Of a stretch of 64,000 nucleotides of DNA, positions 14,719-49,341 are shown piece after piece. The notes under the pieces were generated by a model. The model did not search any database. It was not told where the DNA came from and was given only the letters and a program-made list of their open reading frames with translations. Numbering within the stretch: the stretch's first letter is position 1; each line of letters starts with the position of its first letter. Both the position numbers and the translations under genes were made by a program. This DNA is from Cyanophora paradoxa CCMP329 (taxonomy: Eukaryota > Plantae > Glaucophyta): the NCBI GenBank assembly GCA_004431415.1, contig QPMI01000496.1:434001-498000 (forward strand). Direction: 5' to 3'.

Positions 14719-14790
14719 AAATGCGCCATAAATTGCGCCATAAAATGCACCATAAAATGCGCCATAAAATGCGCCATAAAATGCGCCATG
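14719..14790 (+). repeat. Tandem 12-bp repeat, 6 copies of AAATGCGCCATA
   Basis: Six near-identical units read directly from the sequence. Confidence 0.9.
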
Positions 14791-15793: not shown

Positions 15794-15874
15794 TACAGTA
15801 ATAACATAAAAAACAAAATAAACTGCTCACCTACTTAATTTCTGAGCTTCCTACTCTAACGAAAGAAAAGAACT

Positions 15875-17100: not shown

Positions 17101-17152
17101 CTCTTATGTTTAAAATACCAAAAGAAATTTTTAAAATGCTTTATTAAACAGA

Positions 17153-18052: not shown

Positions 18053-18088
18053 GAAATACTGTAGAATAAATTTGTCTCGATATTACAA

Positions 18089-18873
18089 ATGGCTCGCAAG
18101 ACTCAGCCCAAGAATTTCTTAGCCAAACCAGTTGAGCAAGCAGAACCAGAACGGAAACAGTTTAAGAAATCGAAAGGAACCGCAGCATACGGAACTGGTG
18201 ATCTCGATAAAAATGTCCACCAGACCATGAATGCTCACACAATTGCGCTTACTTCAAACTCAAATGATGATAATGCCCTGGTTGACCAAGTCCCACTGAA
18301 CCGCATGCCCGGAGCGAAACGAGGAATCAAGAAAGGGCAGTTCAAATCATCCACGAAGGACAAGGTTGCCTCATCATCGACACTGCTGAAACTGCTTGAT
18401 GGTGGTGAGAGACTCTACTCAACCTATTCCGAGAAAGACCATCGCAACCGCTACTTTATTCGTTCAACCACTGGTGGACTGAAATCTGTGACATATCAGT
18501 ATGCTAAGAGTCTTGTTGATGGTATTGCAGCAGAGACCAAAAACGAAAACAAGATCAAGGAACAGCCAATCACAAAGGAGAAGGTTGAGAAGAAACCAGA
18601 GGTAACCATGAAGTAATCCCTGAACCTGTTCATGTCGCAAAAGACTCACCAACAGAACTGATTGCAAAGACAATCGATTACCAAGACTCCAACAAAACGG
18701 ATTTGCCGGTTCTCAATAAATCGATCCTCCGGGTTGCCACTTCGCAGGCTGATCCAGTCAACTCGATTCCAAATGCTGCCCAATGGTCTCAGGGTTTGCA
18801 AAGCTTGGTATTAGACCCGGTTATCGCCGTTAAGGATCATTTCAGAATTTTTAAAAATCTTGAACATTGTTAG
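18089..18873 (+). CDS. Lys-rich viral protein of unknown function (candidate core/structural protein); probably extends past a 1-nt frameshift near 18607
   Basis: 175-aa ORF to 18616. An overlapping frame HEVIPEPVHVAKD...FKNLEHC* stays open to 18873. Confidence 0.6.
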
Positions 18874-19183
18874 CGCTACGTAACCAATCTTATCCCGTAG
18901 GCTCAAAACTTCTTCATTTTTATGGAGGCGTTGTAGAGCGAAGTGAAAATATCCATAGGTAAATCACTTTAATCACCTGTTCTACCGGGTTCAGTGGTAG
19001 AAACTTGCAGCCGACAAGTGAGCCTATTTGGTTTCGGTGGCTTTATCATTTTTCCAGCATCTTCTTTCGTACTGGATGCTCTGCAATCGGACCAAAATTT
19101 GACAGGAGTTTAATCGCTATATACAGACAGAAAAACTACTTAAAGATTTCTTAACATATATTAAGAGAGTAGAAAAGGACAAA

Positions 19184-19441
19184 ATGCCAATCAGTGAGGC
19201 TCAGAAGCGTGCTACTTATCGTTATCGTAAAAGTGAAAAAGGTCAGGAATATTTAAAAAAGTATAATGCGAAATTCGCAAAGCAAATGCGTGATTTATAC
19301 CATACTGATGAGTGTTACAGAGCCATGAGAATCGTTGAGAGTTCCCAGCGTCTCTATGCTTCCAATGCAGTCTGCTTTGTGAAGTATCTCTATGGTGTCC
19401 CGTATTCTAACCGTGGTCGCAAATCGAAATATCTCTGTTAA
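19184..19441 (+). CDS. Small basic viral protein (85 aa), putative DNA-binding
   Basis: N-terminus MPISEAQKRATYRYRK resembles the S.AQKRA..(K/R)Y start of small viral and phage proteins. Good ATG context. Confidence 0.65.
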   Translation: MPISEAQKRATYRYRKSEKGQEYLKKYNAKFAKQMRDLYHTDECYRAMRIVESSQRLYASNAVCFVKYLYGVPYSNRGRKSKYLC

Positions 19442-19682
19442 TTGTTTTTCTCAGCGCGATCTGCTCTGAGAAACCCGTGGGAACCGCGCTGGAACCACAA
19501 ATAAAATCATTCTGTTATTTTTAGAGTTCGATGATCGAGCCAACCCTTTGTTATTTTTATGAATGCCCTCGACTAAATTTATTTTGTTGGAGACTTTTGG
19601 TTTTGTCGGTAAAATTTGACGCGAGTATAAAAGTATTTAAAGAAAACTTTTGTAGGTATATATTAATAGAGTGAACAAAGAA

Positions 19683-22600
19683 ATGCCTCGACCAAGTAAT
19701 CGGATTTCGAAGAATTTGCAGGATGAGATTCTTGGTTACTACATGCAAGCAAAAGTAGAAGACAAATTGACCCGAGAGCAGGATATCTATTTCTTGAGAG
19801 AATTTACTTTCAAAGCAATTAGAATTCCAAAGTTGATTGATATCAGAGATACACTGAGAGGTATCGTAGAGCCTCGTTTGTATCGCAAGCAGGAGAAGAA
19901 GGAAGCCAGAGCGGAGAGGGCTGCAAAGAATGTTGCAAAACGGCAAGCAAAGACCAAAGAAGTGCAGAAATACAAAAGAAATCAGCAGAAGAAGGCCAAG
20001 AAGCAAGAGAGGGTTCAAAAATGGAAGTCAAAGCAGGAAGCCAACCAGGTTCAGGTAATGAATGCCATGAATCACCTAGTCGAAGAGATTACATGGAAAA
20101 ACGCTAAGAAAAACCTAATTAACACAATCCATCGGTTTATCACTGAGAAGATAGGATGGGATGATCTCCACAGAAGACTTCAAGAGGCTTTGGACAGACA
20201 CAATGGAATTAAGTTCCAGTTCAAAGTGAAGGCCAATTACAAATACAAGGAGAAGCAAAATGGAAGGTGGACAGGAGAGTACCAATACGCAACCAGATAT
20301 CCAAGCTCAATGCAGTTTTACCTAGTTCTTCCAGCAAATGACCTAACGGATATCGTAAGGCAAGCTGTGGATGATCTGCATGAAATCATGACAGCCATTG
20401 AGTATGCAGAGGTTCACAATATTCTCGAAGTAACCCTACAAATTCTATCTTACACACCTCTGACAGGAAGTTCTTACATTCCTCTTCCAGAAGAGATTGA
20501 AAAGAGAAAGGCTGTTATCAATCCTAAGAATGAAGACCAAGAATGTTTCCGACATGCTGTTAAGATTGGCTTGCATCACAATGATGTCATTCGAAACCAC
20601 AGATCTGAATTGAAACGATACAGTAAGTGGGACAAGGAATTTGATTGGAGTCGCTTTGAGTTCCCAGTCAAGAATGATTCTAGAGTTTACGATCTAGCTT
20701 CAAAGATGATTGGTAGACCTATCAATGTCTACTTCCTTGATAACAAGAAACGAGTCTTCCCTATCCATGTGAACAAGAACCCAGCAGAGCAGCACAAGAC
20801 CATTGACCTTTTGATGTGGAGTGATGGGGAGAACACCCATTATGGCTTCATTTCAAGTCTATCGAGACTCATTCCAAGCTCACACAAGGAAACGAAGTAT
20901 TTCTGTAAATGCTGCTTGAAGGGATTTACAGGTCAAAGGATCCTCGATAATCACATTAGACTAAGCAGATGCTATGAACGACCAACAGCAACTATTGATG
21001 TGATGCCTGAAGCAGGAAGCTGTATTATGTGGGATCCACAGAGAAATGCAGACAAAACAGTTTGGCATCCGATGTTTGCAGTTGCTGATTTCGAGTGTCT
21101 CCTGAAATCTGTTGAAAGTGTTGTGACTCGTGTTGATGAGAAAGGTGTTAAATACGATTCAAATAATAACGAGATCAACACCGAAATTTACCAAAAGCAC
21201 ATCCCTTGCGCTTACAAAATCATGATCATGCATAAGGACAAGATCCTAAGAGAAGTCCTCTACCAGAAACAAGATCCAAACAACGATGATGAGGTAATCA
21301 ATCATTTCATGACAACTCTCAAAAATATGGAGGCTGAGTTGCTTGAAAAGGTGAGAGAGGTCGAGCCAATAAAGATGGATCGATATGACAAAATGAATTT
21401 CAAAGAAGCCACATGCTGCTACATTTGCGAGGATCAATTCGTTAAATATGGAGAAGAGGGTAAGGTTTTCATTACAAAGAAAGTCAGGGATCATGATCAT
21501 ACCACAGGTAAATATCTTGGGGCTGCCTGTGATAAATGCAACCTGAGAAGAAGGGTTAACCCTAAAATTCCTGTTATATTCCACAATCTGAAAGGGTATG
21601 ATGGACACTACATTCTAAAAGCTCTCGGTGAGCATGCAGACCCAGGAAAAGAGATCCGCTGTATCGCTGAGAATTTCGAGAAGTTCAAGTGTTTCGACTT
21701 TAACAGCTACAAATTCGTTGATTCCCTGAATTTCATGCAAGAAAGTCTTGACAAACTTGCTAGTAATCTCGGTCACAGAGACAACTATAAATACACCAAT
21801 GAATGGTGTGACCAGCATACAATTACGGAGACCCAAAGAGAACTCCTGATGAGGAAGGGATTCTTCCCTTATGATTACTTGGATTGCCTTGATAGACTCA
21901 GCGAAACTAAACTTCCCAGCAAAGAGGCTTTCTTCTCAAAGCTTAATGATCGTGAAATTAGCGACAGTGACTACAAGCATTGTCAGAAGGTGTGGGATGC
22001 ATTTGATTGCAAGACACTTGGAGATTACATGAAGATCTACCTTGAAACTGATGTGTTCCTTCTCGCTGATGTGTTTGGTCACAATTTCCGACAGAGATGC
22101 TATAAAGATTATGGACTTGATCCTATCCATTTCATTTCAGCTCCACACCTCAGTTGGAATGCTATGTTGAAACTTACGAAGGTTGTTCTCGAAAACATTG
22201 ATGATGATGAAATGTATCGTATGTTCGAGCTTGGAATTCGTGGTGGAATATCGATGATAGCTACGCGGAATGCTCAGGCTAACAATCCATACATGAAGAA
22301 CTTTGATCCAACAAAGCCAATAAAATACATCATCACATGGGATGCCAACAATTTGTATGGATTTGCTATGTGTCAAAAGTTACCTATTGGTGATTTTGAA
22401 TGGATCGATAACGTTGAAGACTTTGATTACATGAAATTTGATGCTGATGGTGAAACTGGGGCATTATTGGAGGTTGATTTGGAGTATCCAGATCATTTGC
22501 ATGATGAGCATAGCGATTACCCACTAGCACCTGAATCTATGGTAGTAACTGAGGACATGTTATCACCTTCCCAACTTGAAATGCTTGGTGAAGAAAAGCT

Positions 22601-23681
22601 TCCTGGAAACCGAAAGTTGGTACCCAATCTGAACAACAAACACAACTACGTTCTTCACATCAAGAATCTGCAATACTATGTATCAAAGGGTATGATTGTG
22701 AAGAAGATCCATCGAGGGATTGAATTCAAACAATCGGCTTGGTTGAAACCTTACATTGATTTCAATACTGAGAAAAGGAAGCAGGCACAAAATGATTTCG
22801 ATAAGGATTTCTACAAGCTCATGAATAATTCGGTGTATGGAAAAACCATGGAGAATGTCCGGAATCGTAGCAACATCAAACTCTGCCACAACCCAGAGAA
22901 GCAGGCGAAACTGAATGCAAACCCTCTACTGAAAAAGGTTAAGATCATCACCGAGAACCTGACAGCAGTTGAAATGTATCGTGGAACTATTCTTCTCGAT
23001 AAACCAATCTATGTTGGTCAGGCGATCCTTGATTTATCAAAACTTGTCATGTATCAGTTCCACTACGATTACATTCGCAAGAAGTATGGATCGAAAGCCA
23101 AACTCCTCATGACTGACACAGATTCGCTGTATTACATTATTGAGACCGAGGATCTATACAAGGATATGAACTCTGACTCTCATTTGTTCGATCAATCGGA
23201 ATACAGTCCTTCTCACATTTGCTACAATCCTCAAAATAAAAAGGTTCCTGGTTTATTCAAGGATGATGCCGGTGATTTGGTTGTAACTGACTTTGCAGGA
23301 TACAAACCAAAGGCCTACTCTTATTTGAAGGATTTGAATGTCAAGGCTCTTGGTTCGGAAGAAGATGTGAAAAAGGTGATTGCTAAAAGGTTGAAGGATA
23401 GTGGGAAAAGTTCAGAAGAAGATGTAAAGAAAGATACTGTAAAGAGGTTGAAGGGAATCCAGAGATGTGTAGTTAAAAACAAATTAGAGTATAAGCATTT
23501 CTATGATACTGTCATGGGGCAAGAGCAGGATCCTGTTACAGTTAGAGGAATTCGTTCAAAGAACCACGAGGTATCAACACTTGAAATGAAAAAGAGGGCA
23601 TTCAATGCGCTTGATACCAAGAGGTATCTTTGCGAGGATAAGGTGAATACTCTTGCAATTGGGCATTACAGAACTCGCTAA
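19683..23681 (+). CDS. polB: Protein-primed family B DNA polymerase polyprotein (1332 aa): putative terminal protein, OTU-like protease domain, C2H2 finger, exonuclease with Endo VII-like insert, polymerase
   Basis: Exo I ADFEC, Exo II FHNLKGYDGH, Exo III YLETDV; Pol A DANNLYG, Pol B KLMNNSVYGK, Pol C TDTDS. Also NPKNEDQECF...THY, CKCCLKGF.....LDNH, and CYIC...VRDHDHTTGKYLGAACDKCN. Frame is uninterrupted. Confidence 0.97.
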   Translation: MPRPSNRISKNLQDEILGYYMQAKVEDKLTREQDIYFLREFTFKAIRIPKLIDIRDTLRGIVEPRLYRKQEKKEARAERAAKNVAKRQAKTKEVQKYKRNQQKKAKKQERVQKWKSKQEANQVQVMNAMNHLVEEITWKNAKKNLINTIHRFITEKIGWDDLHRRLQEALDRHNGIKFQFKVKANYKYKEKQNGRWTGEYQYATRYPSSMQFYLVLPANDLTDIVRQAVDDLHEIMTAIEYAEVHNILEVTLQILSYTPLTGSSYIPLPEEIEKRKAVINPKNEDQECFRHAVKIGLHHNDVIRNHRSELKRYSKWDKEFDWSRFEFPVKNDSRVYDLASKMIGRPINVYFLDNKKRVFPIHVNKNPAEQHKTIDLLMWSDGENTHYGFISSLSRLIPSSHKETKYFCKCCLKGFTGQRILDNHIRLSRCYERPTATIDVMPEAGSCIMWDPQRNADKTVWHPMFAVADFECLLKSVESVVTRVDEKGVKYDSNNNEINTEIYQKHIPCAYKIMIMHKDKILREVLYQKQDPNNDDEVINHFMTTLKNMEAELLEKVREVEPIKMDRYDKMNFKEATCCYICEDQFVKYGEEGKVFITKKVRDHDHTTGKYLGAACDKCNLRRRVNPKIPVIFHNLKGYDGHYILKALGEHADPGKEIRCIAENFEKFKCFDFNSYKFVDSLNFMQESLDKLASNLGHRDNYKYTNEWCDQHTITETQRELLMRKGFFPYDYLDCLDRLSETKLPSKEAFFSKLNDREISDSDYKHCQKVWDAFDCKTLGDYMKIYLETDVFLLADVFGHNFRQRCYKDYGLDPIHFISAPHLSWNAMLKLTKVVLENIDDDEMYRMFELGIRGGISMIATRNAQANNPYMKNFDPTKPIKYIITWDANNLYGFAMCQKLPIGDFEWIDNVEDFDYMKFDADGETGALLEVDLEYPDHLHDEHSDYPLAPESMVVTEDMLSPSQLEMLGEEKLPGNRKLVPNLNNKHNYVLHIKNLQYYVSKGMIVKKIHRGIEFKQSAWLKPYIDFNTEKRKQAQNDFDKDFYKLMNNSVYGKTMENVRNRSNIKLCHNPEKQAKLNANPLLKKVKIITENLTAVEMYRGTILLDKPIYVGQAILDLSKLVMYQFHYDYIRKKYGSKAKLLMTDTDSLYYIIETEDLYKDMNSDSHLFDQSEYSPSHICYNPQNKKVPGLFKDDAGDLVVTDFAGYKPKAYSYLKDLNVKALGSEEDVKKVIAKRLKDSGKSSEEDVKKDTVKRLKGIQRCVVKNKLEYKHFYDTVMGQEQDPVTVRGIRSKNHEVSTLEMKKRAFNALDTKRYLCEDKVNTLAIGHYRTR

Positions 23682-23713
23682 GGTTAGGTTAAAGAAATTG
23701 ATTGCTTATTGTA

Positions 23714-24794
23714 ATGGAGCAGGTATTGAGCTATACAAAATATAGACAAAAGCTAATCAATGAGGGTGTAAAGTTTGATGAGGATGAATTGAAAAAGAGA
23801 TTTAAAAACAGTGAATTGAATCAGATTTTCAAGAAGCCTACCAAGCCGAAATCGTTTCTTAGAATCGTAGCCCACCCAATTCTTTTCAGGTTGATATTAT
23901 ATATTTCAAGGATTATAAGACAGCAAACTATGGTGTGGATCGCATGCTAGTATTCGTAGATATTTTGAGTAGGAAGGGTTTTATATTTCCTTTCAAAATG
24001 GTCACTGGGAAGGAGAAGAACGATGAGAAGAAGATTGAGATTCTAAACAAATTTAAAAGCCAAGCTGGAACAGTCCAAGCTCTTTCCGGAGATAAGGAGT
24101 TTTCAGGGAATATTTACAAGAAATGGTGTGAGGATAATGGTGTGGTTTTATACACAGACATTGCCAAAGATGACCACATTACAGTTGGGGATAAACTCGG
24201 AATAGTTGATAGGTTCACAAGAACAATCAAGCAGTATTTAAGGAAGGCTATAAAGTCAACTGGGAACTCGAAGTGGACTGAATTTTATGAAGATGTGCTG
24301 GCGACTTACAATAACAGTCCACACAGTTCACTGAAGAATGATTCTCCAAATGCTGTGTATGGAAATAAAGAAAAGGAAACGTATGTTTACTTTCGTGATT
24401 CACTGCATAATAAGCATGTGAGAGAGGGATTACCAAAAGTGCAAGAAGGAGATTATGTGAGGGCTGTGAATCCAAAGGGAGTTTTCGAGAAAGAGGGTGC
24501 AAGGTTCAGTGAGAAAGTGTTTAAGGTGGCTGGTAAAGTTCAGAATAAATACAAACTTTTGGAGGATAATGAAGGTGAAACAGTTCGTGAAGTTCGAAGA
24601 AAATTCAAAATAAATGAGTTGCAAAAAGTAGATAAAGAGGCTGTCGTAAAGATACCAACCAAAAGAGAGTTGAGAGGGTAAAGAAAACCACAAATGTGAA
24701 TCGAGTGGTTTCCCAAAAAGAAGGAATAAAACCAAATCGTAAGAAAGTAGTTAGAAAGAGATATAATTTGAGAAGTGGATTAACTAAACGTTAA
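23714..24794 (+). CDS. Retroviral-type (rve) integrase with two apparent 1-nt frameshifts (near 23877 and 24664)
   Basis: Repaired frame reads HPNSFQVDII...MLVFVDILSRK...SGDKEF...IVDRFTRTIK...YNNSPHSSL...P, then an SH3-like GDYVR...FEK...FSEKVFKV and a basic tail ending RYNLRSGLTKR*. That stop overlaps the stop of the convergent gene in TTAA at 24791-24794. Consistent with the 6-bp TSD. Confidence 0.9.
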
Positions 24795-25153
24795 GCTCTA
24801 ATATCAGATCCATCATCTGATTCAATAAATCTTGTAACTGGTTTGAATCTTTGAAATACATCTTTGTGGTGAATTCCTTTTACATACCACCCTTTGTTTA
24901 CAGGATCCCATCTGAGTCCCATACACTTTGCATCGAAATTATCTTTAAATTGAACTTTGCAGTAGATCTTTTCATTTCTGTATTTAATTTCTTTTTCATT
25001 GATCGTTTGGAATTCTTTCAGTAAATCACTATTTGCATCTTCTGTATACCAAAGTTTCATTTCATAATCCCATTTTGCTCCTTTCTCTTTTGCGATTTTT
25101 CGATCATTGTAATCACAATCAAAGTAAAACTTCTTAATTGTATTTGTCTCCAT
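24791..25153 (-). CDS. Tandem DUF5710-like domain protein (120 aa)
   Basis: Two copies of the Y..V.F.D...AK..G.RWD...K.WY pattern: FYFDCDYNDRKIAKEKGAKWDYEMKLWY and IYCKVQFKDNFDAKCMGLRWDPVNKGWY. Confidence 0.8.
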   Translation of the reverse strand: METNTIKKFYFDCDYNDRKIAKEKGAKWDYEMKLWYTEDANSDLLKEFQTINEKEIKYRNEKIYCKVQFKDNFDAKCMGLRWDPVNKGWYVKGIHHKDVFQRFKPVTRFIESDDGSDIRA

Positions 25154-25211
25154 TTTATTCAGATTATCATATTATTTTTATATGAAACAATCAATGAGGA
25201 TATAACAATCA

Positions 25212-25452
25212 GATATAACTTCGATTAAATATAATTAATCGAGATTATGATATAACTTCGATAAATAAGATTTAAGATATAACTTCGATTAATTAATTTA
25301 AGATATAACTTCGATTAATTGTGATTGAGAGACTGAGAATTTGTTGAATTCTGATTGGTAAAGACTGAGAATCGAGAGGATTTTGATTGGGATTGTTTGA
25401 TATATTGGGAATTAATCGATGTGGTGACAGTAGCCCCACTTTACCATTTTTT
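25212..25452 (-). repeat. Right terminal inverted repeat (241 bp)
   Basis: Ends CCCCACTTTACCATTTTTT; reverse complement of 13630-13870. Confidence 0.95.
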
Positions 25453-26000
25453 CACGAGCGAAGAGGGGCGCCGCTGGGGCCCCGGCCGCGGGCCGATCCT
25501 CTGCTGGCGGCGGGCGCCGCGGCGGCCCTCCGGCTCCGGCTCCGTGGCCCCGACAGAAAGCAGCGAGCTTGACCTGGCGGGAGGCAGCGCCGCCGGCGCC
25601 GGCGCCGGCGCCGGCTGGCCCCGCCGGAGGAGGCGGCGGGGGCGCTGCGGCGAGCGGAGCGACTGGCGGAGGGCGTGCAGGCGCTGCTGGAGGAGACGTG
25701 CCGGAAGCGGCTGCCGGCCCTCGCCCCTTTGTCGAGCTCGCGCGGGCCGAGCGGCCGGGCCTGGCCCCGCGCCGCCGCCTCGCCCGCCTCCGCGCCGCCG
25801 CGGACGGGTTCGCGCGCCTCGGCCTGCGCCCCTTCGAGATCGCGGCGCGCCTCCGCCTGGCGCGGGCCGAGCCCGACCCGGCGGCCGCCTCCGCGGCCCT
25901 CGCGGCGGCCGGCCGCCTCGCCTCGGAGACGGGCGTGCGGGTGCCGGCTTTGGGGCGCCCCGCCCCGCTCCCGGGCGAGTTCGAGGCGACCTGGGTCTGA
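25453..26000 (+). CDS. 3' end of the same cyclase-STAND-TPR gene, separated from its 5' part by the viral insertion
   Basis: Removing the element and one TSD restores an open frame AVCAIT-SEEGRRWGPG. The terminal frame ...ELARAERPGL...GEFEATWV* ends at 26000. Contains apparent 1-nt indels. Confidence 0.65.
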
Positions 26001-30715: not shown

Positions 30716-31083
30716 ATCATGGCATGCAGAACCGCGGAAGGAATTCGAAGACCACTTCTCGCGAGTTCGAGAGAGCTCTCGCGAGCTCGAAAGCTGACCG
30801 GTCCACCGAGCCAATCAGATCGCGAATAACGGCACATTTTCGTTGCAAACTGGACCTCGAAAACGGCCTCGTAGAAAACTTTTGGCTGAAGCGAGGGGAC
30901 GGGAAGCAAGGGGGGAAGACCTTCGGTCTTCTTTCCCCCCTTGCAAAATTCGAGGGTGCACGCGTACGGTTACGTATACCACAGTATTCGCTACGTATAC
31001 GGCTCGATCTCCGCTACCATGATCATTGGATCATGCATTTACGTATACGTATACTAGTACTGTGATCATGAGTTAGGTTTTAG

Positions 31084-34000
31084 TTATTGAGTCCGCCCCA
31101 AGTCTGCCAGCGCCTGCCGAACAACCGAAGTCGTCGGGTGCTGTGGCCCCAGGGTCCGCTCGAGCACCGACAGCGCCCCCTGCGAGTTGCAATGATGCCT
31201 CAGTAGGCGCCGATCGCGAATATCGGCGAATGTTTGACTTGCGCACCTCCGTCAGCGCCACCGCCTCGGAGTGTGCCTCCCTCGTCCCCAGCTTCGCGAG
31301 GAGGTCCCCCAGGCACGCCATCGTGTATGCCGTGTCCGGGTGCTCCGCCCCAAGCGCCCGCTCACGCACCCGCAGCGCCTCCTGCGATCACGTGGGGCGC
31401 GATCGATATCGCGGGGGATCGCGATCGATTTATTAATTATGATCATGAAAGCTAACGCCGCGAACTCGAAGCTCGTTGCACCTCGAACATGGGACGCGCC
31501 GCCGCGTAGTCGCCCTGGGAAGTAAGCAGAATCGCAAGGTTCTGCGCCGTCGCTGCAACGCTCGGGTGCTCCGGTCCAAGCGCGTTCCTGCGCAGCCGCA
31601 GCGCCTCCTGCAGAGAAGCGGAGCTGAGCGACGAATCCAACGCGCCGGGCAACTCATATTGGAAGAAGCGTAAGGCGCGCCCCGCACCTCGAGCAACGGC
31701 CGCGCTGCAGCGTAGTCGCCCTGTCCAGACAGCACGCCCGCAAGGTTCTGCATCGCCATTGCAACGTCGAGGTGCTCCGGCCCCAGCGCTTTCTTGTACA
31801 CCGAAAGTGCCTCCTGCGCATGCGAATTCGAAATGCATCGTTGGAATTTCGCAGACACACGGCGGCCTAGGGCGCATGAATATTCGGCACCTCGAACATG
31901 CGTCGCGCTGCAACTTTGTCGCCCTTAGCTTGCAGCAGCACCGCCAGATCTTGCGTTGTTGATGCAACGCTTGGATGCTCCGGCCCCAGCACCTTTCGGT
32001 AGACCCGCAGCGCCTCCTGCGGCGCGCGAGAATCAGAGCTGGAGTTGGAACGTGCCAGAAACGAGGAGATGCTTTAATTTCACCTCATACATCGGCCGCG
32101 CCGCTTCGTAGTCTCCCTGATCGGACAGCACGCCTGCAAGGTTATGCATCGCCATTGCAACGTCGGGGTGCTCCGACCCCAGCGCCTTCCGGTAAATACG
32201 CAGCGCTTCCTGCAATGGCCCGGGGCGGGATCGGAACCGCGGGAGCCGAAGTCGTACCGAGAAGGCAGCCGGTGCCGTTTCGCACCTCCAGCGTGTGTCG
32301 CGCCGCCTCGTAGTCGCCCTGACCCCTCAGGACGCCCGCCAAATTCTGCATCGTTGTCGCGACGTTCGGATGATCCCGTCCCAGCGCTTTCTCACGCAGC
32401 CGCAGCGCCTCCTGCGAGAAATACAATCGAATTCAAAGCCCCACAACAATTGCAAGAGCCCGCGACAAAGTCCGATCCCCGGAGAACATTTAAGCTTCGA
32501 GAAGCACGCTGCACCTCGAACAATGCGCGTGCTGCCTCGTATTCATCCTGGGCCATAAGCAGGCTGGCCAAATCTCCCACCGCCCCTGCGGCCTCCACGT
32601 GCTCCGGCCCCAGCACCTTCTTGTATACGCGCAGCGCCTCCTGCGATTGCGAGGGGCGGGGCTGGATCGGAACCCAGAAGCCGGGCGACGTTACAGCTAA
32701 ACATTGAGACTTACTTCGAGCATTCGCTTCGCTTCGCCGTATTCTCCAAATTCGGTGAGCAGACCGGCAAGGTTCTGTGTTGTCCGTGCCACGTCGGGGT
32801 GGTCCGGCCCCAGCGCCTTCTTGCGCACCCGCAGCGCCTCCTGCAACGCGCACGTGTATACGTACGTACGATCGGGATCAGATTTGGAATGGACGGGTCG
32901 GGCTCAAAACGGGTGCAGCATGCGCACCTCGTACATGGACCGCGCCTCTGCAAAGTTGCCCTGGGCCTTCAGCATAGCTGCCAGATTCTGCGCGGTCGTC
33001 GCGACGTGGGGATGCTCTGGCCCCAGAGCTTTTTTATAGACGCGCAGCGCCTCCTGAACATGTGACGGTCGCGATTAGAAACGTAATTAAATGATAAGAG
33101 GCGAAAGGGTGCCTGGGAAACACGACACGTTTCGCACCTCGTACATTGTCCGTGCCGTCGCAAAGTCACCCTGCTCGGCCAGAAGATTTGCCAGATTCTG
33201 CGTAGTCATCACGACGTCGAGGTGTTCCGGCCCCAGCGCCTTCTTGCGCAGCCGCAGCGCCTCCTGAGGCGGACCCGGGCCGGGTTCAGCAGCTGCCAAA
33301 TCATGGATAAAGTGCGAAAGACACCTCATACATCGGCAGAGCCGCTGCGAATTCGCCTTTGGCCTTCAGCAGAATCGCCAGGTTCTGCGTAGTTTTCGCA
33401 ATCTCAGCGTGCTCCGGCCCCAGCGCCTTCTTGTACACGCGCAGGGCTGCCTGCACGCGGCGACGTTAGATCTCGCGCGCACGCGGAGAATAACGATTCG
33501 CAGCGGACCTGAAGGAACGGGATGCCATCGGCAGAGCGTCCCATCACATGCAGCAGCCAGCCGGCCATGCTCAGAGCGTGGGGGTTCGCGTTGCCGCTCC
33601 CCACCTCGAGCTTAGCAGCACCGCATGCTGGGCTCGCGATCGTGTGCGTTCGCATGGCCAGTCCGACGGTCGACGCGTACGACTCTATATTTTAGGATCC
33701 GAAGAAATAGAGACGCACAGGCGAAAGAGAGCGTTGTCCTTGTCATCGGCAGGGGCGAGCTTAGAGAAAGCAGACCACGAGCCCCAGGAAGTCGTGCCAG
33801 AACAGCGTCCAAGTGAGCTGGCTCGGCCCGCCGGCGGCGTCCACGCCGACGAAGGCCTTCAGCTCGTCCTCTGCCATCCCGTGCCGCGCGCACACGACGG
33901 CAGAGGCGGCGTCCCGCACGAGCGCCGACCCGTGGCGCGAGGCGAGGCGGCGCAGGACGAGGCGGAAGAGGTCGCGCGGGCCGCCCCCGCAGCCAAGGAA

Positions 34001-36945
34001 CGCGCCGATGTCGGCGTCGAGGTTCGCGTGGACGGAGACGTTCGAGAGCTCGTCGAGGAGGACGGTGAGGAAGAGGACGTTGCGGCACGGCTCGGCCCGC
34101 ACGATGCGCTCGAGGCGCTCGTCGGAGAGGGCGCGCCCCTGCTCGCGGAGCACGCCCTCGACCACCTGCCTCCGCCGGGCCTCCGAGAGGGGCGCGATCT
34201 CGCGGTCCACGTGTGCCCTGGCGGTCGCGGCGTCCAGGGTCGGGCCTGCGCTTCCGCATCAACTCTGTGCCATCGCCGCGAGATGGGATGGCCGGCGACG
34301 GCAGCACCGCGCAGGCTGGAGACGAGGATGCGGAGGCGGGGCCCGGAGGCGGGCGGGAGCCACGCGAGGCCGGTGACGGGCGGGTCGCCCCGCAGCTGGT
34401 CCAGCCCGTCCAGGACGAGGACGACGCGGAAGGGCCAGCAGGTGGCGCCGGTTGCGAGGAAGACGCTCAGGCGGGCCGCCAATTCGGCGTCCATGCCGCG
34501 CAGGTCGACAGCCTCGGCCTTGGGCCAGCGGCCGCGGACCTCCTCGCTGATCCGCCTGCGCATGCCCGGCGGCCGTGAACACGAAGTCCGACAAATAAGC
34601 TTAAGGCTAATCAGACAAAATTGGATAGTTCGATGTGGGCGGACGGTATACGTATGGCCATGGCCGCGGGCCAGGCAGCGCGAACCGAGCGATCGAGGCG
34701 AGCAGTGAGCTGCTCTGGGACCCCCCGATGAAGTGCACGATCACGAGGTCGTCGGGGTGCGACTTTGTCCACTCCCACGCCCAGTTGGCGAGGAGGGCTG
34801 CGCACGCGTCGTCGACCCAATTAACCTCGCGAGGGCCGTAATAGACTGCGGACCGCTCTTGCCGCAGCCGCCGTCCCCGTGCAGCACGAAGAGGTCGGGG
34901 CTCGAGGCCGCCGCGTAGGTGCTCAGGGTGTCTATGTCCTGCGGGTTGCGCACGAAGACGCGCCGCCGCGACGCCGCGAACGCCGCGTGCTGCGCCCGCT
35001 CCGCCTCCAGCCACGGCCGCTCCTTCTCCAGCGGGTGCTCCCTTTCCAGCATCTGAGGCGGCCCCTCCCTCAAAACGCAGGCTGATCATGAGACCGGATG
35101 CGGGGGCGCGGGGGCCGCGCACCGCCTTGAGGGCGTCGCGCATGTCGAGGGCGAGCCGCTGGGCGTCCGGGTACTCGGCAACGCGGAGGCCTGCGGCTCG
35201 GATCTCGCCCTTCAGCGCCTCCAGGCGCTGCTCCGCGAAGGGGCCTTCCCCCGATCCGGGCGCGGCGGGGCGCGCGGCCTGCATGAGGCCCGGGCCAGCC
35301 ATGTAGAACAGCGTTTTGTCCCGCATGGACTGGGAGGCCGCCCGAAGTCATCGCGTGAGGACTCGGAGAGGGGGGTGAGGGGCGGGTGAGGAGGAGCTCG
35401 GGGGGCTGGATGGGTTGGAGAGGGGGGTTGGAGGGCCGGGAGATCTAGATGGGTTGGAGAGAAGGGTTGGAGGGCCGGAGAGAGGGGAGAGGGTTGGAGA
35501 GGGGGTTGAAGAGGTTGAAGGGGTTGAAGAGGGGGGTTGGAGAGGGGGCGCGGGGTGGGGGGGTGGGGGGGGGGGGGGGGGCGGGGGAGGGGGGGCAGGA
35601 GGGGCCCGGAAAGGGGCGGGGGCGGGGGGGCGGGGGGCGGAATTCGAGGGGGTAGAGGGGTAGGGGGATTATGTGCGTGGGAGCAAACCTGGAGGCGCGA
35701 GATCGAAGGAGTGGCTCCTCCCGGCCGCACCGCGCCGCCGAGCACGCCCGCGCGGATCTCTGCGCGCGGCCCCCTGGGCTGAGCGAGCCCGGCGGCCGAG
35801 AGCGGATTCCGCCTCACCGATCTCGGTCACGCTGCGGTCCTGCCACTCCTGCACCCATGGGAACTCTTCCCCGGCGCGCCCCAAGTTCCTGCGTGGGCTC
35901 GCGATCGTGTGCGTTCGCATGGCCAGTCCGACGGTCGACGCGTACGACTCTATATTTTAGGATCCGAAGAAATAGAGACGCACAGGCGAAAGAGAGCGTT
36001 GTCCTTGTCATCGGCAGGGGCGTCGGGCCGCAGGTGCCAGCCGTACCGAGCCTGCGTCACGTCGCCGAGTCGTTGCCCAGAATCACTTAGTCAGAATGGG
36101 CACTGCGGCAATTGCCACTTCAGGCTTCATAATAAATTATATACTACCTTGAGCAAGCCGACGAAGTGCGTGCTCCGATCCACCTCCCGCAGGCACAACA
36201 GGGTCACCAGGCCCGCCTGGCACGCCTCCTCGTTGATGCCCCACCTGCGGCCGCGCTCTGAATCAAACCTCAAGCTCGCGATCGGCACAGCAGGCGCGCG
36301 CGCATGCGGGCCTGAGGTCGACGCAGTGGAAGAAAAGCCCGCGCTCCGCGCACATCGCCTTCAGCGTCGGGTTCACGAAGCTGCGAATGGCATCCCTCTC
36401 CGCCTGCATGTCCTCTGCAGCCGCGGTTCGTGATTAGCCTTAGTGTACGTACGCGTACTAGTGGGGGGCGCCGGCTGCGCGGCACGCGTACGCCGCATGC
36501 GCGGGCGGTCCGCGCGCGGGGACGTTAACGTTGTTGATTAATATATTCGGTATATATTCCGCTCGGGCGCGCGGCCGGGCGCACGGAAGGTCGAGGAGAC
36601 GAAGATGCGCACGACGCGCTTCTGCGCCAGCAAAGCGTCGCGGCGCGCAGCCGATGGAGCCACGGCTGCAGCTGGCGCCGCGGCGATCGTGCGCTTGGCT
36701 TCGGCCCCGGTCGCGGGGGCCAGAGAAGCAGTCGGCCGCGCAGCTGGCCCCGCGGCGGCCGCGGCGGCCGGGCCCGCGGCGGACCTCGGGGGGTCCCCGC
36801 GGCCGGATCTTAGGCCTGCAGCTGCCCCGCTTGCATGCGAATTCGGCGGGCGTTCAAATTCGGGGACCAGCACCACTTCCTGAATCTTCGAGACACTCTG
36901 GGGAGCCCCCAGGCCCGCGCTCCCTCGAGAACCGCAGCAGCCCAT
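31084..36945 (-). CDS. DUF4062-NACHT-TPR (nephrocystin-3/NLR-like) protein, multi-exon; possibly damaged between the NTPase and the TPRs
   Basis: MGCCGS start. DUF4062 motifs RIFVSSTF/EDMQAERDAI...VDLR/WGI...RYGW...SVTEIE. Walker A HGDGGCGKS/ALLANW, VHFIGGS; Walker B LVLDGLDQL...WLP; NVLFL. About 12 TPRs of the EALR..KKALGPEHPDVA...QNLA..L..QGDY type. Stop at 31084-31086. Confidence 0.85.
33629..33757 (+). repeat. 129-bp copy of 35894-36022 (an exon end + intron of the same gene)
   Basis: Identical sequence TGGGCTCGCGATC...CGGCAGGGGCG at both sites. Confidence 0.92.
35355..35670 (+). repeat. G-rich low-complexity intronic tract (GGGTTGGAGA-like units and G runs)
   Basis: Seen directly; lies between coding exons of the NACHT-TPR gene. 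Confidence 0.75.
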
Positions 36946-39529: not shown

Positions 39530-39845
39530 TCGGGATTTGCGCTCTCAATGCGTAAATCGAGTTTTGCGCCGACTGAATGCGAGTAAAGAAGACCGTAGCC
39601 GAACGCCAGGCACGAAAGAGCTGAGCGACTCGCTAGCCGCAGAGCGGCGCGAGGCGAGCACGGGATGAGCAGCAGGCGGCAGCGAGCGCCCCGCAAGGGA
39701 CTAGCTGAGCTAGCCGTTGGGCCGAGCCGGCGGGCTTGAAGCCGCCGAGCTCCGGGGGGTACGCTGATTCGGGGTTTCCCTTCACGCCCTGCTTCGCTCG
39801 CGGCCGCTCCAGGCCACGAAGCGACCAGCGGCGAAGCGAAATCGC
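39530..39845 (+). repeat. Repeat A1 (second copy at 49894-50206)
   Basis: TCGGGATTTGCGCTCTCAATG...GCGAAGCGAAATCGC at both sites. Confidence 0.93.
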
Positions 39846-40465
39846 CACAGCCAGCACAGCAATCACTCCTAAACAGCCCTGTCGGACCGGCGGCCGCACA
39901 TCTCGGCCGTCCCTCCTATTGCACGGAGCCGACCCAACTCTGCAGCACCATGGCTAGCTGCAGTGGAGCGTGATCCCGCGGCAGCAACTGTGAAGCAGTT
40001 CTGCCTCGTTGGCTGGCCGGAGCAAACCCTGTTCCCAGCGATCCTCCCGGAATCGGCCCCGGGCCCCGATTCACGCTTGAATCTGGTGCCTTACTGCCGT
40101 GCCGGTACGTGGATTCACGTCCGGGCCCGCCCGCCACGCTCGCATCCAGCGCGCGCTGGCTATCCCGGGGGCCCACCGTCAGTCCGCGGCCGCCGGCTTG
40201 CCTATACACTCTATAAGCGTGTATTGAGACCCGCCGCGCGATTCCTCCGGATCCCTGACCATTCCCTGCGCGCATGATCCGGGAGCTCCTCGGCGCTCGA
40301 ACCGGACGCCGCCGCCGCGCCACGCCGGCGGAGCTCGCGCAGGAACGCCCCGGCCTGCTGGCGCTCGCGCTGCAGGCCCACCGCACCGTCGGGGCTTGGA
40401 TCGTGCCTTACGCGTGATCCACCGACGGACGGTGCCCGGCCGCCCGCGCGGCTCGGGGTGGCGAC

Positions 40466-42645
40466 GGAGTACGGTTCTCGCTGGCGCCTCGCTGCGAGTC
40501 GGCCCGCTGGCGCCTCGCTGCGGGCCCCGTCCTCGGAGTTCCGGGACCGCTGGCGCGGCGCGCCGCGGTCCCGGCCTGCCCCGCAGGCCCCGCCGCGCCC
40601 GCGGCCGGCGAGCTCCACCCCGGAGTACGGCCTCGCTGGCGGAACCGCTGCGAGATGGCCCGCTGGCGCGTCGCGCTGCGGGCCCGTCCTCGGAGTTCCG
40701 GGACCGCTGGCGCGGCGCGCCGCGGTCCCGGCCTGCCCCGCAGGCCCCGGCCGCGCCCGCGGCCGGCGAGCTCCACCCCGGAGTACGGCCTCGCTGGCGG
40801 AACCGCTGCGAGATGGCCCGCTGGCGCGTCGCGCTGCGGGCCCCGTCCTCGGAGTTCCGGGGACCGCTGGCGCGGCGCGCCGCGGTCCCGGCCTGCCCCG
40901 CAGGCCCCGGCCGCGCCCGCGGCCGGCGAGCTCCACCCCGGAGTACGGCCTCGCTGGCGGAACCGCTGCGAGATGGCCCGCTAGCGCGTCGCGCTGCGGG
41001 CCCCGTCCTCGGAGTTCCGGGGACCGCTGGCGCGGCGCGCCGCGGCCCCGGCCTGCCCCGCAGGCCCCGGCCGCGCCCGCGGCCGGCGAGCTCCACCCCG
41101 GAGTACGGCCTCGCTGGCGGAACCGCTGCGAGATGGCCCGCTGGCGCGTCGCGCTGCGGGCCCCGTGCTCGGAGTTCCGGGGACCGCTGGCGCGGCGCGC
41201 CGCGGTCCCGGCCTGCCCCGCAGGCCCCGGCCGCGCCCACGGCCGGCGAGCTCCACCCCGGAGTACGGCCTCGCTGGCGGAACCGCTGCGAGATGGCCCG
41301 CTGGCGCGTCGCGCTGCGGGCCCCGTGCTCGGAGCTCCGGGGACCGCTGGCGCGGCGCGCCGCGGTCCCGCCCTGCCCCGCAGGCCCCGGCCGCGCCCGC
41401 GGCCGGCGAGCTCCTCCCCGGAGTACGGCCTCGCTGGCGGAACCGCTGCGAGATGGCCCGCTGGCGCGTCGCGCTGCGGGCCCCGTGCTCGGAGTTCCGG
41501 GACCGCTGGCGCGGCGCGCCGCGGTCCCGGCCTGCCCCGCAGGCCCCGGCCGCGCCCGCGGCCGGCGAGCTCCACCCCGGAGTACGGCCTCGCTGGCGGA
41601 ACCGCTGCGAGATGGCCCGCTGGCGCGTCGCGCTGCGGGCCCCGTGCTCGGAGTTCCGGGGACCGCTGGCGCGGCGCGCCGCGGTCCCGGCCTGCCCCGC
41701 AGGCCCCGGCCGCGCCCGCGGCCGGCGAGCTCCACCCCGGAGTACGGCCTCGCTGGCGGAACCGCTGCGAGATGGCCCGCTGGCGCGTCGCGCTGCGGGC
41801 CCCGTCCTCGGAGTTCCGGGGACCGCTGGCGCGGCGCGCCGCGGCCCCGGCCTGCCCCGCAGGCCCCGGCCGCGCCCGCGGCCGGCGAGCTCCACCCCGG
41901 AGTACGGCCTCGCTGGCGGAACCGCTGCGAGATGGCCCGCTGGCGCGTCGCGCTGCGGGCCCCGTGCTCGGAGTTCCGGGGACCGCTGGCGCGGCGCGCC
42001 GCGGTCCCGGCCTGCCCCGCAGGCCCGGCCGCGCCCACGGCCGGCGAGCTCCACCCCGGAGTACGGCCTCGCTGGCGGAACCGCTGCGAGATGGCCCGCT
42101 GCGCGTCGCGCTGCGGGCCCCGTGCTCGGAGCTCCGGGGACCGCTGGCGCGGCGCGCCGCGGTCCCGCCCTGCCCCGCAGGCCCCGGCCGCGCCCGCGGC
42201 CGGCGAGCTCCTCCCCGGAGTACGGCCTCGCTGGCGGAACCGCTGCGAGATGGCCCGCTGGCGCGTCGCGCTGCGGGCCCCGTGCTCGGAGTTCCGGGGA
42301 CCGCTGGCGCGGCGCGCCGCGGTCCCGGCCTGCCCCGCAGGCCCGGCCGCGCCCGCGGCCGGCGAGCTCCACCCCGGAGTACGGCCTCGCTGGCGGAACC
42401 GCTGCGAGATGGCCCGCTGGCGCGTCGCGCTGCGGGCCCCGTCCTCGGAGTTCCGGGGACCGCTGGCGCGGCGCGCCGCGGCCCCGGCCTGCCCGCAGGC
42501 CCCCGGCCGCGCCCGCGGCCGGCGAGCTCCACCCGGAGTACGGCCTCGCTGGCGGAACCGCTGCGAGATGGCCCGCTGGCGCTCGCCGCTGCGGGCCCCG
42601 TCCTCGGATCTAGTTCCGGGGAGTCGGGGACCGCTGGCGCGTCGC
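40466..42645. repeat. GC-rich tandem array, about 160-bp unit, 13-14 copies, highly homogeneous
   Basis: AACCGCTGCGAGATGG recurs at 40643, 40801, 40961, 41121, 41281, 41441, 41600, 41760, 41920, 42079, 42238, 42397 and 42556. Confidence 0.95.
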
Positions 42646-43359
42646 TCTACAGGCCCCGCGGCCGCACTCCGTCGGAGTGCCCGCTGCGCATGCAGCCTCG
42701 CGATCGATCGCGATCGCAGAGTGTTTTTGTTTTTTGTTTGTCTGTGGTCGATTTTAGTCAATTCAATGGTTGACTCGACCTAAAAACAAAACAAAAACAA
42801 AAAACAACAAACGTCCCGGCCGGACCGGCGGACCCGCGAGGGCGCGATTCCGCGCGAACCCGCGGGCCGCGGGCCCGCGGCGCCGGCGGCCGCGGCCGCG
42901 CGCGCGCGCGCGCCGCGCCGGCGGCCCGGCGCGCGGTCTCCGAGGCTCGCTAGTAGTCGCTACCGGTAGGCTGCGGCGGTAGCTACCTGGCTGGTGCTTC
43001 CGGGCGCTTCCGCGCTCAGAATCCGCTGCCGCAGGCCTATCGCTAGGCCCGCAGCGCGCATCAGCAGCGCCGCGGCGCATCGCCGCATGCCATGCCCGGC
43101 TGCACGTAAGCTAGTCCCCAGTACTACTAGTAGTACTGCAGCTCCCGAGCGCGTGCGAGTCAGCCCGGCCTCAGCCTCCGCCGCGGCGCCCGACACCGCA
43201 GCCGCTGAGCTGCAGCTGCAACTGCCAGGCTGGCGCTTCCGCTGCCGCAGTGCTGTCGCTGGCGCGTGGCGCTGCGGACTACAGCCCTCGCTGGCGCTCC
43301 AGATCTCGCTGCGAGTCGGCCCGCTGGCGACCTTCCGCGCATCCGCGCCGCGCCGTCGC

Positions 43360-48915: not shown

Positions 48916-49341
48916 CTTCACGCCGACGCGCAGTGCGACCGCCTTGCCCGCCCTCCACCCGTAGCGCGCCCCTGGCCCGCACCGCCCAGCATGACTTGTC
49001 GGCGGCGGGGATCTGGCGGCGCCACTATCCAGCGCCGCCCCGGTTCGTCGACTGTCCCATAGGGGTACGGCGAGAACCCCCCAGCCTTCTGTGCCGGCTC
49101 GTTACCTCGGGCGTTTTGGCCCGCCCCGGCCCCATGTTGTTTGTCCGAATTCACGCTCTCTGCCCGTTCCTCCTACAGCGCAGTGCGCTGGGGGAGGGAG
49201 GCCTAGCGTCTGGGACACGTGGGGTGGCAGGGGAAGGAGGAAGGAGAGGGGGGGAATGGGGGAGGGCGAAACAACCTTCGCCCTCTTGCTCACTTTGTTC
49301 CTATGTATGCTATTCTGGCTGGCTGTGACCTGACTCTTGTT

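What the first reader, a model, noticed from the sequence alone, without database searches (positions are those of the whole stretch)
31482..33450. One TPR per exon: ten exactly 126-nt phase-0 exons in an NLR-like receptor
Seen: exons 31482-31607, 31688-31813, 31891-32016, 32084-32209, 32286-32411, 32515-32640, 32715-32840, 32928-33053, 33138-33263 and 33325-33450. Each encodes one 42-aa TPR with a conserved scaffold and variable positions, separated by short dissimilar introns. Any exon can be skipped, duplicated or swapped without frameshift. Established: exon-per-repeat NB-ARC-TPR and ROCO-LRR genes in the brown alga Ectocarpus were proposed as shuffling immune receptors. Inference: a modular diversifying sensor array on a DUF4062-NACHT protein, a candidate protist innate-immune system lying beside an endogenous virus and a second STAND gene.
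Basis: partly seen in the sequence, partly recalled or inferred. Interest (0 to 1): 0.75.

Follow-up and report, generated by a model that had tools for sequence, protein, structure and literature searches.

The report
Algal NLR-like receptor with cassette exons
In the alga Cyanophora paradoxa, a spliced gene from a family of about 30 builds its repeat arm from ten equal exons, one repeat each, behind an ATP switch and a predicted NAD-cleaving domain, so it is likely an immune sensor whose arm is remodelled over evolutionary time; no exon-skipping form was seen.

Summary
Confirmed: ten 126-nt, phase-0, GT-AG exons (minus strand), each one 42-residue kinesin-light-chain-type TPR unit, spliced in genomic order in two RNA-derived runs. 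The gene is DUF4062-NACHT-helical-TPR from Cyanophora paradoxa, one of at least 32 family members found. Close paralogs carry 4-12 in-register units, some recently duplicated within a gene, varying most at TPR positions 2, 9, 12, 13. Against active shuffling: this gene's exons are 61-79% alike, introns unalignable, dN/dS about 0.3, no orphan exons, no skipped joint among shown rows; metagenome (presumably bacterial) arrays vary likewise. The window lacks about 105 codons upstream (break with a 129-nt copy); RNA shows an intact form. The neighbouring Polinton-like element and second STAND motif are real, with no link shown. The layout is known from Ectocarpus, and this scan noted it in three other genomes. 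Verdict: new variant of a known kind, a likely TIR-like-NADase NLR family in a glaucophyte.

The parts
36585..36945 (-). First coding exon: MGCC start (predicted myristoylation/palmitoylation), low-complexity linker, first strand of DUF4062
   Evidence: Open frame; 3' splice to 36414 shown by an RNA loose end; MGC starts in P0003, P0004, P0010, P0013, P0016, P0020; acylation is inferred from the motif (recalled)
35120..36645 (-). DUF4062 TIR-like domain over several small exons (one GC-AG intron at 36311, one long C-rich intron about 35335-35688)
   Evidence: tblastn of paralogs, family HMM, Pfam PF13271 above cut-off in 7 of 10 proteins scanned, model of paralog domain pLDDT 93 matching TIR/NDT folds
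35758..35818 (-). Putative catalytic Glu codon of S-x-T-x-x-E, split by a phase-1 intron (G at 35818, AG at 35759-35758)
   Evidence: Sequence, RNA loose end at 35818 reads through the joint, Glu in 98 of 100 aligned homologs; catalytic role inferred
33770..35052 (-). NACHT ATPase (Walker A near 34855-34878, Walker B near 34400) and winged-helix start
   Evidence: Pfam NACHT E 5.9e-9 on the gene's own model P0001; RNA joints 34244/34307, 34554/34685, 34797/34854
33629..33769 (-). Break: 12 nt of filler plus a 129-nt exact copy of 35894-36022 in place of about 105 codons of helical domain
   Evidence: Self-BLAST, gap against paralog P0005 residues 600-706, RNA of X17 and X18 leaves the window at 33770 and continues in frame like the paralogs
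33509..33619 (-). Lead half-repeat exon (ends G-I-P-F-L-Q), phase-0 donor
   Evidence: tblastn, 43-57% identity to paralog lead units; X18 contig carries 56 letters ahead of exon 1
33325..33450 (-). TPR exon 1 (126 nt, phase 0-0)
33138..33263 (-). TPR exon 2
32928..33053 (-). TPR exon 3
32715..32840 (-). TPR exon 4
32515..32640 (-). TPR exon 5 (most diverged)
32286..32411 (-). TPR exon 6
32084..32209 (-). TPR exon 7 (79% nt identity to exon 9, the closest pair)
31891..32016 (-). TPR exon 8
31688..31813 (-). TPR exon 9
31482..31607 (-). TPR exon 10
31247..31381 (-). Cap exon, 135 nt, phase 0-0, a diverged 45-aa unit shared by paralogs
31000..31179 (-). Last exon: final half-repeat, stop codon and 3' untranslated part

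Best explanation
This is the spliced sensor arm of a DUF4062-NACHT-TPR gene of Cyanophora paradoxa that likely works as an NLR-type immune receptor: a ligand would bind the TPR groove, the NACHT would oligomerise, and the clustered TIR-like DUF4062 domains are predicted to cleave NAD+, likely at a membrane. The one-unit-per-exon layout likely arose when an intron entered one repeat at a GAG|G site in helix B and the exon-plus-intron unit was then duplicated in tandem. Because the boundary lies at the conserved E|E-A-L, each exon carries one whole helix A with its variable positions 2, 9, 12, 13. The arm likely diversifies over evolutionary time by in-gene duplication, loss and unequal crossover of these units plus fast substitution at those positions, and not by routine exon skipping or somatic rearrangement. 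Shown: exons, splicing, architecture, family size, unit-number variation, variable sites. Inferred: ligand sensing, oligomerisation, NADase activity, acylation, immune role, intron history.
For: Exons and splicing. Architecture. At least 32 family proteins in one genome: 22 with the genome's gene names plus 10 of 10 checked by accession as C. paradoxa; 20 of 21 named ones fall in one clade, apart from most unnamed homologs (FastTree 97). Seven close paralogs (58-89% NACHT identity) have 4-12 units, all spaced exactly 42 aa. Repeats cluster by gene overall (31 changes vs 44.4 shuffled, 0 of 200), strongly in P0004 and P0008 (0 of 500 each); P0004 has units up to 92% alike. Identity between paralogs drops from 72-90% in the helical domain to 43-76% at the first and last repeat units. 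38% of differences in the 38 closest pairs fall on 4 of 42 positions; 63 different four-residue combinations among 64 units. Paralog DUF4062 model pLDDT 93, best match TIRAP Z 10.4, rmsd 3.3, 138 aligned, with TIR and NDT domains filling most of the top 25. S-x-T-x-x-E Glu in helix C kept in 98 of 100 homologs and in the window's mRNA. DUF4062 shown as NADase in TEP1 and in a bacterial defence system (bioRxiv 10.64898/2026.05.01.722283). Gene models of P0010, P0012, P0015, P0020 and P0008 break register right after the unit's last Glu, as intron read-through at the same site would (indirect).
Against: No ligand, activity or infection data. Full-length human NPHP3, the same architecture, showed no NADase activity in vitro, nor did NWD1 or NWD2. 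No dN/dS above 1 (positions 2, 9, 12, 13: pN 0.60 vs pS 0.73, near saturation). The window's own repeats cluster only weakly by gene (42 of 500 shuffles as low), and P0002 and P0006 not at all. The same positions vary in metagenome TPR arrays, so variability is generic. Only 3 of 81 neighbours of bacterial homologs hit PADLOC, with no control, and the N-terminal part matches no PADLOC model. No RNA contig bridges the NACHT part to the TPR part; the window copy is broken. Paralog introns were not seen directly, and unit counts rest on automatic gene models, some truncated.
Confidence: 0.55

Rival explanations
1. One reading: the exons are cassettes that are skipped, combined or rearranged within a cell lineage to give many sensor isoforms.
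For: All exons are frame-safe and carry a whole helix A. Splice variants of repeat exons are reported for brown algal ROCO genes (PMC11378527, passages) and for human NLRP3 (PMC6642158, abstract). Three RNA records in X17 and X19 join repeat-like pieces out of this gene's order (table 5c).
Against: Those records differ in sequence at the joint and are best read as paralog transcripts. X17 gave 5 records, the array lying on one in-order contig; no skip among 15 shown of 48 joint rows. No spare, inverted or inactivated exon in the 64 kb. Contigs drop rare variants, so this is not proof of absence.
Confidence: 0.12
2. Frozen by-product: the layout is a relic of old tandem duplications in an intron-rich genome; the protein is a sensor, but exon symmetry adds nothing to its diversification.
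For: Exons 61-79% alike, introns unalignable, dS near 1. Twelve metagenome or bacterial proteins have 7-14 of the same units with in-gene pairs up to 93% alike, so turnover needs no introns. Fixed-position units diverge as fast as internal ones. Three earlier scan notes read the same layout as frozen (unchecked).
Against: P0004 and P0008 show recent in-gene expansion after splitting from paralogs that are up to 89% and 67% alike in the NACHT part, and unit number differs among close paralogs, so the family's arrays are not frozen even if this gene's is.
Confidence: 0.2
3. Non-immune NPHP3-like protein: an acylated, membrane or flagellar scaffold or signalling switch with an inactive DUF4062, expanded for cargo or partner recognition.
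For: Same domain order as human NPHP3, Pfam TPR_NPHP3 hits, N-terminal Gly-2 acylation motif like NPHP3 (recalled), NPHP3 inactive as NADase in vitro, and the organism is a flagellate (recalled).
Against: A family of 30 or more with a fast-changing repeat arm is unlike a conserved ciliary gene; nearest outside homologs found are 32-34% identical metagenome and bacterial proteins, and none of the 36 hits is named NPHP3; the putative catalytic Glu is kept.
Confidence: 0.1
4. This copy is a broken allele or decaying pseudogene: a real deletion with a templated insertion has cut the TPR arm from the NACHT part.
For: The junction has filler and a 129-nt templated copy with short microhomology, as end-joining repair can leave; the public gene model stops there (P0001).
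Against: Two RNA-derived runs match the window without a difference up to 33770 and continue in frame into the missing part; all ten exons are intact, spliced and under purifying selection. This concerns the window's copy only and is compatible with the best explanation.
Confidence: 0.03

Closest known systems
Ectocarpus NB-ARC-TPR genes with repetitive TPR exons (Zambounis et al., PMC3341825; passages, sections 16 and 17, supplement table searched)
   Same: 126-nt exons, each one 42-aa TPR unit, on a STAND ATPase; paralog family; proposed immune receptors.
   Different: NB-ARC there, NACHT of the TEP1/NWD/NPHP3 type here, with a DUF4062 effector; glaucophyte, not brown alga. Inactivated intronic TPR exons there, none here. 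The paper's search motif runs from G-K-Y to Q, which suggests another exon boundary than E|E here; the boundary is not stated in the text read, so an independent origin is inferred.
Human NPHP3 (and TEP1, NWD1, NWD2): DUF4062-NACHT proteins (bioRxiv 10.64898/2026.05.01.722283; first two of seven parts, section 11, passages)
   Same: DUF4062 next to NACHT and a helical domain; NPHP3 also ends in TPRs (TPR_NPHP3 hits).
   Different: Single-copy genes in humans versus 30 or more here; TEP1 is an active NADase with WD40 repeats, NPHP3 was inactive in vitro; activity here untested.
Bacterial DUF4062 defence systems Swarozyc and Evangelion (10.64898/2026.05.01.722283; 10.64898/2026.06.25.731849, passages)
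   Same: TIR-like DUF4062 core with an S-x-T region holding the putative catalytic Glu; activation on sensing an invader.
   Different: They have a short auxiliary sensor and no NACHT or TPR. Closer in build are uncharacterised bacterial DUF4062-NACHT-repeat proteins (593 candidate stretches in GTDB genomes, many Planctomycetota, Verrucomicrobiota, Chloroflexota, Acidobacteriota).
Fungal NLRs with 42-aa TPR repeats of high internal conservation (Dyrka et al., PMC4986451; passages)
   Same: 42-aa TPR units, repeat-number variation, variable sites on the concave side, concerted evolution.
   Different: Positive selection and strain polymorphism shown there, not here; fungal TPR receptors are mostly NB-ARC; this gene's units are far less alike (45-76%) than the over-85% class studied there.

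Membership tests
DUF4062 (PF13271) TIR-like NADases | Pfam DUF4062 match above the curated cut-off | tested here: met
   41.6-44.9 bits vs 24.7 in 7 of 10 proteins scanned; the window's exons align to these paralogs. The window's own spliced domain was not scanned.
DUF4062 (PF13271) TIR-like NADases | TIR/NDT flavodoxin-like fold | tested here: met
   Model of P0005 domain pLDDT 93.4; VIA Z 10.4 TIRAP, 10.1 RPS4/RRS1 TIR, 9.7 MilB. Foldseek was unspecific.
DUF4062 (PF13271) TIR-like NADases | Conserved Glu in helix C after S-x-T | tested here: met
   98 of 100 aligned rows, in helix 123-133 after strand C, present in the window's spliced RNA. Its equivalence to TEP1 E1008 is inferred from motif and position, not from an alignment with TEP1.
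DUF4062 (PF13271) TIR-like NADases | NAD(P)+ hydrolysis | not testable with these tools
   Needs an enzyme assay; three of four human members were inactive in vitro.
NLR-like STAND receptors (effector-NOD-repeat) | NACHT or NB-ARC ATPase with Walker A and B | tested here: met
   PF05729 36.4 bits vs 26.7 on P0001; motifs.
NLR-like STAND receptors (effector-NOD-repeat) | Effector, NOD and repeat domain in one polypeptide | tested here: inconclusive
   Met in paralog models; in the window the link is broken and no RNA contig bridges it, though RNA continues in frame past the break.
NLR-like STAND receptors (effector-NOD-repeat) | Ligand-induced oligomerisation and defence output | not testable with these tools
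   No functional data.
Ectocarpus-type exon-shuffling TPR receptors | One 42-aa TPR unit per 126-nt symmetric exon | tested here: met
   10 of 10.
Ectocarpus-type exon-shuffling TPR receptors | NB-ARC-type ATPase | tested here: not met
   NACHT/AAA_16, no PF00931 in 10 of 10 proteins.
Ectocarpus-type exon-shuffling TPR receptors | Inactivated or spare repeat exons in introns | tested here: not met
   HMM of the repeats finds only the ten exons, cap and last exon in the window; introns are too short to hold one.
Ectocarpus-type exon-shuffling TPR receptors | Arrays rearranged between recent paralogs | tested here: inconclusive
   Unit counts differ and collinearity reaches p<0.05 in only 2 of 28 pairs, but fixed-position controls are also diverged; no paralog DNA.
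Ectocarpus-type exon-shuffling TPR receptors | Positive selection on repeats | tested here: inconclusive
   Pooled dN/dS about 0.3; variable sites near neutral and near saturation with 10 exons.
Ectocarpus-type exon-shuffling TPR receptors | Alternative splicing of repeat exons | tested here: inconclusive
   None among shown rows; 33 of 48 joint rows hidden and contigs drop rare forms.
NPHP3 orthologs | Orthology to animal NPHP3 and ciliary localisation | not tested
   No named NPHP3 among the hits; no tree with NPHP3 was built.

The most novel reading that the evidence does not exclude
Glaucophytes evolved their own TIR-NLR equivalent: 30 or more membrane-anchored receptors that couple a TIR-like DUF4062 NADase to a NACHT switch, with a sensor arm whose exon cassettes are gained, lost and swapped between genes fast enough to be polymorphic within the species, the introns serving as safe crossover points. 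It would be a cell-death immune repertoire in a unicellular archaeplastid, arisen independently of plant TNLs and of the brown-algal shuffling receptors.
Probability: 0.25. Interest if true: 0.75.

Novelty: new variant of a known kind. Interest (0 to 1): 0.45.

Why it matters
Immune receptors of unicellular algae are almost undescribed, and my searches found no paper on this family (Cyanophora + NACHT + TPR: 0 papers; glaucophyte + NLR + TPR + STAND: 2 listed, the one searched has no Cyanophora or exon passage; subscription papers such as Teng et al. 2023 were not held). With DUF4062 newly shown to be a NADase family, these genes give a concrete test of whether a eukaryotic DUF4062-NACHT-TPR protein is an active death or signalling receptor, which human NPHP3 did not show. 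The recurrence of one TPR per exon on a different ATPase and lineage suggests that the layout arises repeatedly, and this family, with both old arrays and fresh expansions, lets one test whether introns speed up repeat turnover or merely ride along.

Tried and rejected
No whole genome was held, so paralog introns, Polinton-like element density and clustering could not be examined. No run was on record as RNA; X17-X20 are taken as RNA-derived from their spliced GT-AG joints. The joint 31065-32848 in X18-X20 has 21 letters on one side and TC..AC ends and was rejected as a chance fit. The X17 joint from exon-10-like to exon-1-like sequence was considered as a back-spliced circle and rejected, since the first six letters differ from exon 1 at four places. 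No solved structure matched P0009 by sequence (0 at E<=0.1). Foldseek on the DUF4062 model gave generic alpha/beta folds. PADLOC: only generic TPR models in 3 and PDC-S39 in 1 of 7 proteins; 3 of 81 neighbour ORFs from 24 of 78 loci (ORFs over 900 aa left out) hit a model, so no defence-island claim is made. A bacterial donor for the repeats was considered: window units are 44-48% alike to units of nine metagenome TIR/CHAT-TPR proteins and 33-45% to nine distant paralogs, but the metagenome set was picked by searching with exon 10, so this is not evidence. The repeat tree has only 3 of 61 starred branches; 4 terminal or off-register units were dropped before it. The Ectocarpus exon boundary could not be read from the supplements (table has no motif; the figure PDF holds no text; two .doc files unreadable). 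The N-terminal tree is FastTree only and unrooted, so no donor or direction of transfer is claimed.
Full report
Observation. The ten intervals are exons on the minus strand. Each is 126 nt, follows an AG, precedes a GT, begins and ends on a codon boundary, and encodes a 42-residue TPR unit of the kinesin-light-chain type. The boundary falls between two Glu codons in helix B (GAG|GAG in most), so each exon holds the end of one helix B, the G-P-E-H linker, a whole helix A and the start of the next helix B. TPR position numbers and helix assignment are recalled, not from a call. Runs X17 and X18 show all nine internal joints and two more to a 135-nt cap exon and a last exon; a 1581-nt X17 contig covers the array in genomic order, with no other letters in the four pieces listed. 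Fifteen of 48 joint rows were shown and none is an exon skip. X17 had five records laid: three are listed, one covers part of the 5' region by the depth table, and one 90-95% record joins an exon-10-like end to an exon-1-like start with different letters, which I read as a paralog.

The gene. Upstream lie a first exon starting M-G-C-C at 36945, a DUF4062 domain over several short exons, a NACHT ATPase and the start of a winged helix. At 33770 the window departs from the family: about 105 codons (P0005 residues 600-706) are missing and 12 nt of filler plus an exact 129-nt copy of 35894-36022 stand there. RNA of X17 and X18 matches up to 33770 and then continues in frame with the ten residues found next in the paralogs, so an intact form is expressed. 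Whether the window shows an assembly error or a real deletion allele is open. The public model P0001 stops at this break. No RNA contig links the NACHT and TPR parts.

Organism and family. The NACHT exon finds its own model at 100% and nine paralogs (10 of 10 hits); a wider search gives 21 proteins with the same kind of gene name among 36 hits, then metagenome and bacterial proteins at 32-34% and below. Ten of ten further proteins checked carry Cyanophora paradoxa accessions, and a paper uses the same naming for that species (PMC12449267, one passage). That makes at least 32 proteins. A FastTree of the N-terminal part puts 20 of 21 named proteins and 11 others (9 of them among those checked) in one clade at 97. 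The module is widespread: 3153 clusters at E<=1e-10 and many bacterial phyla. X19 laid 77 records, 48 at 90-95% identity, consistent with expressed paralogs or another strain.

How the array evolves. Inside this gene the exons are 61-79% identical in DNA and 45-76% in protein; introns do not align; pooled pS 0.54 and pN 0.25 give dS 0.95 and dN 0.30. Variation concentrates at positions 2, 9, 12, 13 (pN 0.60, pS 0.73), with 22 and 41 also variable. Concave-side variation of 42-aa TPRs is described for fungal NLRs (PMC4986451, passages); that these four positions face the groove is recalled. So this array is old, conserved as a scaffold, and not shown to be under positive selection. Across the seven close paralogs the picture is more dynamic: 4, 7, 8, 11, 8, 12 and 8 units, all spaced 42 aa; best-diagonal collinearity at p<0.05 in 2 of 28 pairs. 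Units cluster by gene in P0004 and P0008 (0 of 500 shuffles), P0007 (2), P0005 (7), weakly in the window (42) and P0003 (67), and not in P0002 or P0006; one starred group joins window exons 7 and 9 with a P0006 unit. Control: lead and cap units, which hold fixed positions, are only 43-76% alike while the helical domain is 72-90% alike, so missing collinearity may be plain fast substitution. Second control: 12 metagenome or bacterial proteins have 7-14 such units with in-gene pairs up to 93% alike, and in nine of them positions 9, 12, 41 and 2 vary most. Turnover therefore does not need introns. No spare or inverted exon lies in the window. Five paralog models break register just after a unit's last Glu, an indirect sign of the same intron site; others break elsewhere (P0014, P0021, P0019), so the layout is probably not family-wide.

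The effector. DUF4062 is reported as a TIR-like NADase family: active in bacterial Swarozyc and human TEP1, while full-length NWD1, NWD2 and NPHP3 were inactive in vitro (bioRxiv 10.64898/2026.05.01.722283). A second preprint places the putative catalytic Glu in an acidic S-Y-T region (10.64898/2026.06.25.731849, passages). The P0005 domain, folded with 64 homologs, gives a confident five-strand alpha/beta model whose best matches are TIR and nucleoside deoxyribosyltransferase domains (Z up to 10.4). The S-x-T-x-x-E Glu lies in the helix after strand C and is kept in 98 of 100 rows. In the window its codon is split by an intron, and RNA reads through it as Glu. A position near the first strand that is Arg in 54 of 100 homologs is Gln here, which could lower activity. 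The MGCC start suggests lipid anchoring (inference; six of the 24 proteins read start M-G-C).

Surroundings. An 11.8-kb AT-rich element at 13626-25456 has 245-bp inverted ends, a CACGAG target duplication, an A32 packaging ATPase and a type-B polymerase with an endonuclease VII insert: a Polinton-like virus, about 5.5 kb from the gene's 3' end. An AAA_16-like Walker A near 8900 marks a second, unrelated STAND-like gene (no match to this family). Nothing ties either to the TPR gene.

Comparison and verdict. The exon layout matches 13 of 24 Ectocarpus NB-ARC-TPR genes (PMC3341825), but the ATPase class, the effector and the lineage differ and spare exons are absent, so it works like them at most in part and is not a member. 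It is a member of the DUF4062-NACHT group that includes NPHP3 and TEP1. Earlier notes of this scan describe the same layout, in phase 2, in three other genomes (unchecked). I found no paper on this family; the most relevant follow-up paper on brown-algal NB-ARC-TPR splicing was seen only as a reference, and preprint supplements were closed, which bears on the residue mapping to TEP1. I rate it a new variant of a known kind, interest 0.45: the exon layout is real but precedented, and the more valuable point is an expanded, likely NADase-armed NLR-like family in a glaucophyte.

Noticed in passing
window 13626-25456: Polinton-like element: 245-bp terminal inverted repeats, 6-bp CACGAG target duplication, A32 ATPase (15191-15826, -), 1341-aa type-B polymerase with endonuclease VII insert (19656-23681, +), DUF5710 ORF (24791-25171, -); GC 33-46% against 55-75% in the host DNA. 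Capsid genes were not identified.
   Followed up: partly
window 8527-9174 (+): AAA_16-like P-loop (E 3.7e-6, below cut-off), a second STAND-like gene unrelated to the DUF4062-NACHT family; other domains not found by Pfam on single frames.
   Followed up: partly
window 33629-33769: Templated 129-nt copy of 35894-36022 with 12-nt filler whose last letters repeat a 9-mer just downstream; either an assembly error or an end-joining scar.
   Followed up: partly
window 40465-48674: Two adjacent GC-rich satellite arrays, 160-bp period (13.5 copies, 97%) and 139-bp period (about 40 copies, 75-89%).
   Followed up: no
window 49339-49893 / 50860-51416 and 39530-39845 / 49894-50206: Recent dispersed duplications (98.7% over 559 bp; 99% inverted over 316 bp) on both sides of the satellite block, possibly mobile-element ends.
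   Followed up: no
window 36311 and paralog models: A GC-AG intron splits the D-L-R-W-G motif codons (modelled from paralogs; not among the RNA joints shown).
   Followed up: partly
window 14566-14793: 12-bp tandem arrays inside the left end of the Polinton-like element.
   Followed up: no
P0026 (Cyanophora): A distant family member carries malectin-like (PF11721) and F-box-associated (PF04300) domains ahead of DUF4062-NACHT-TPR (precomputed Pfam), an integrated-domain candidate.
   Followed up: no
L001, L008, L011, L052, L057, L078: Bacterial DUF4062-NACHT genes often sit beside very large ORFs (1300-2200 aa); these were not annotated.
   Followed up: no
P0005 C-terminus: An 8-residue partial unit precedes the cap unit, perhaps a truncated exon or a gene-model slip.
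   Followed up: no
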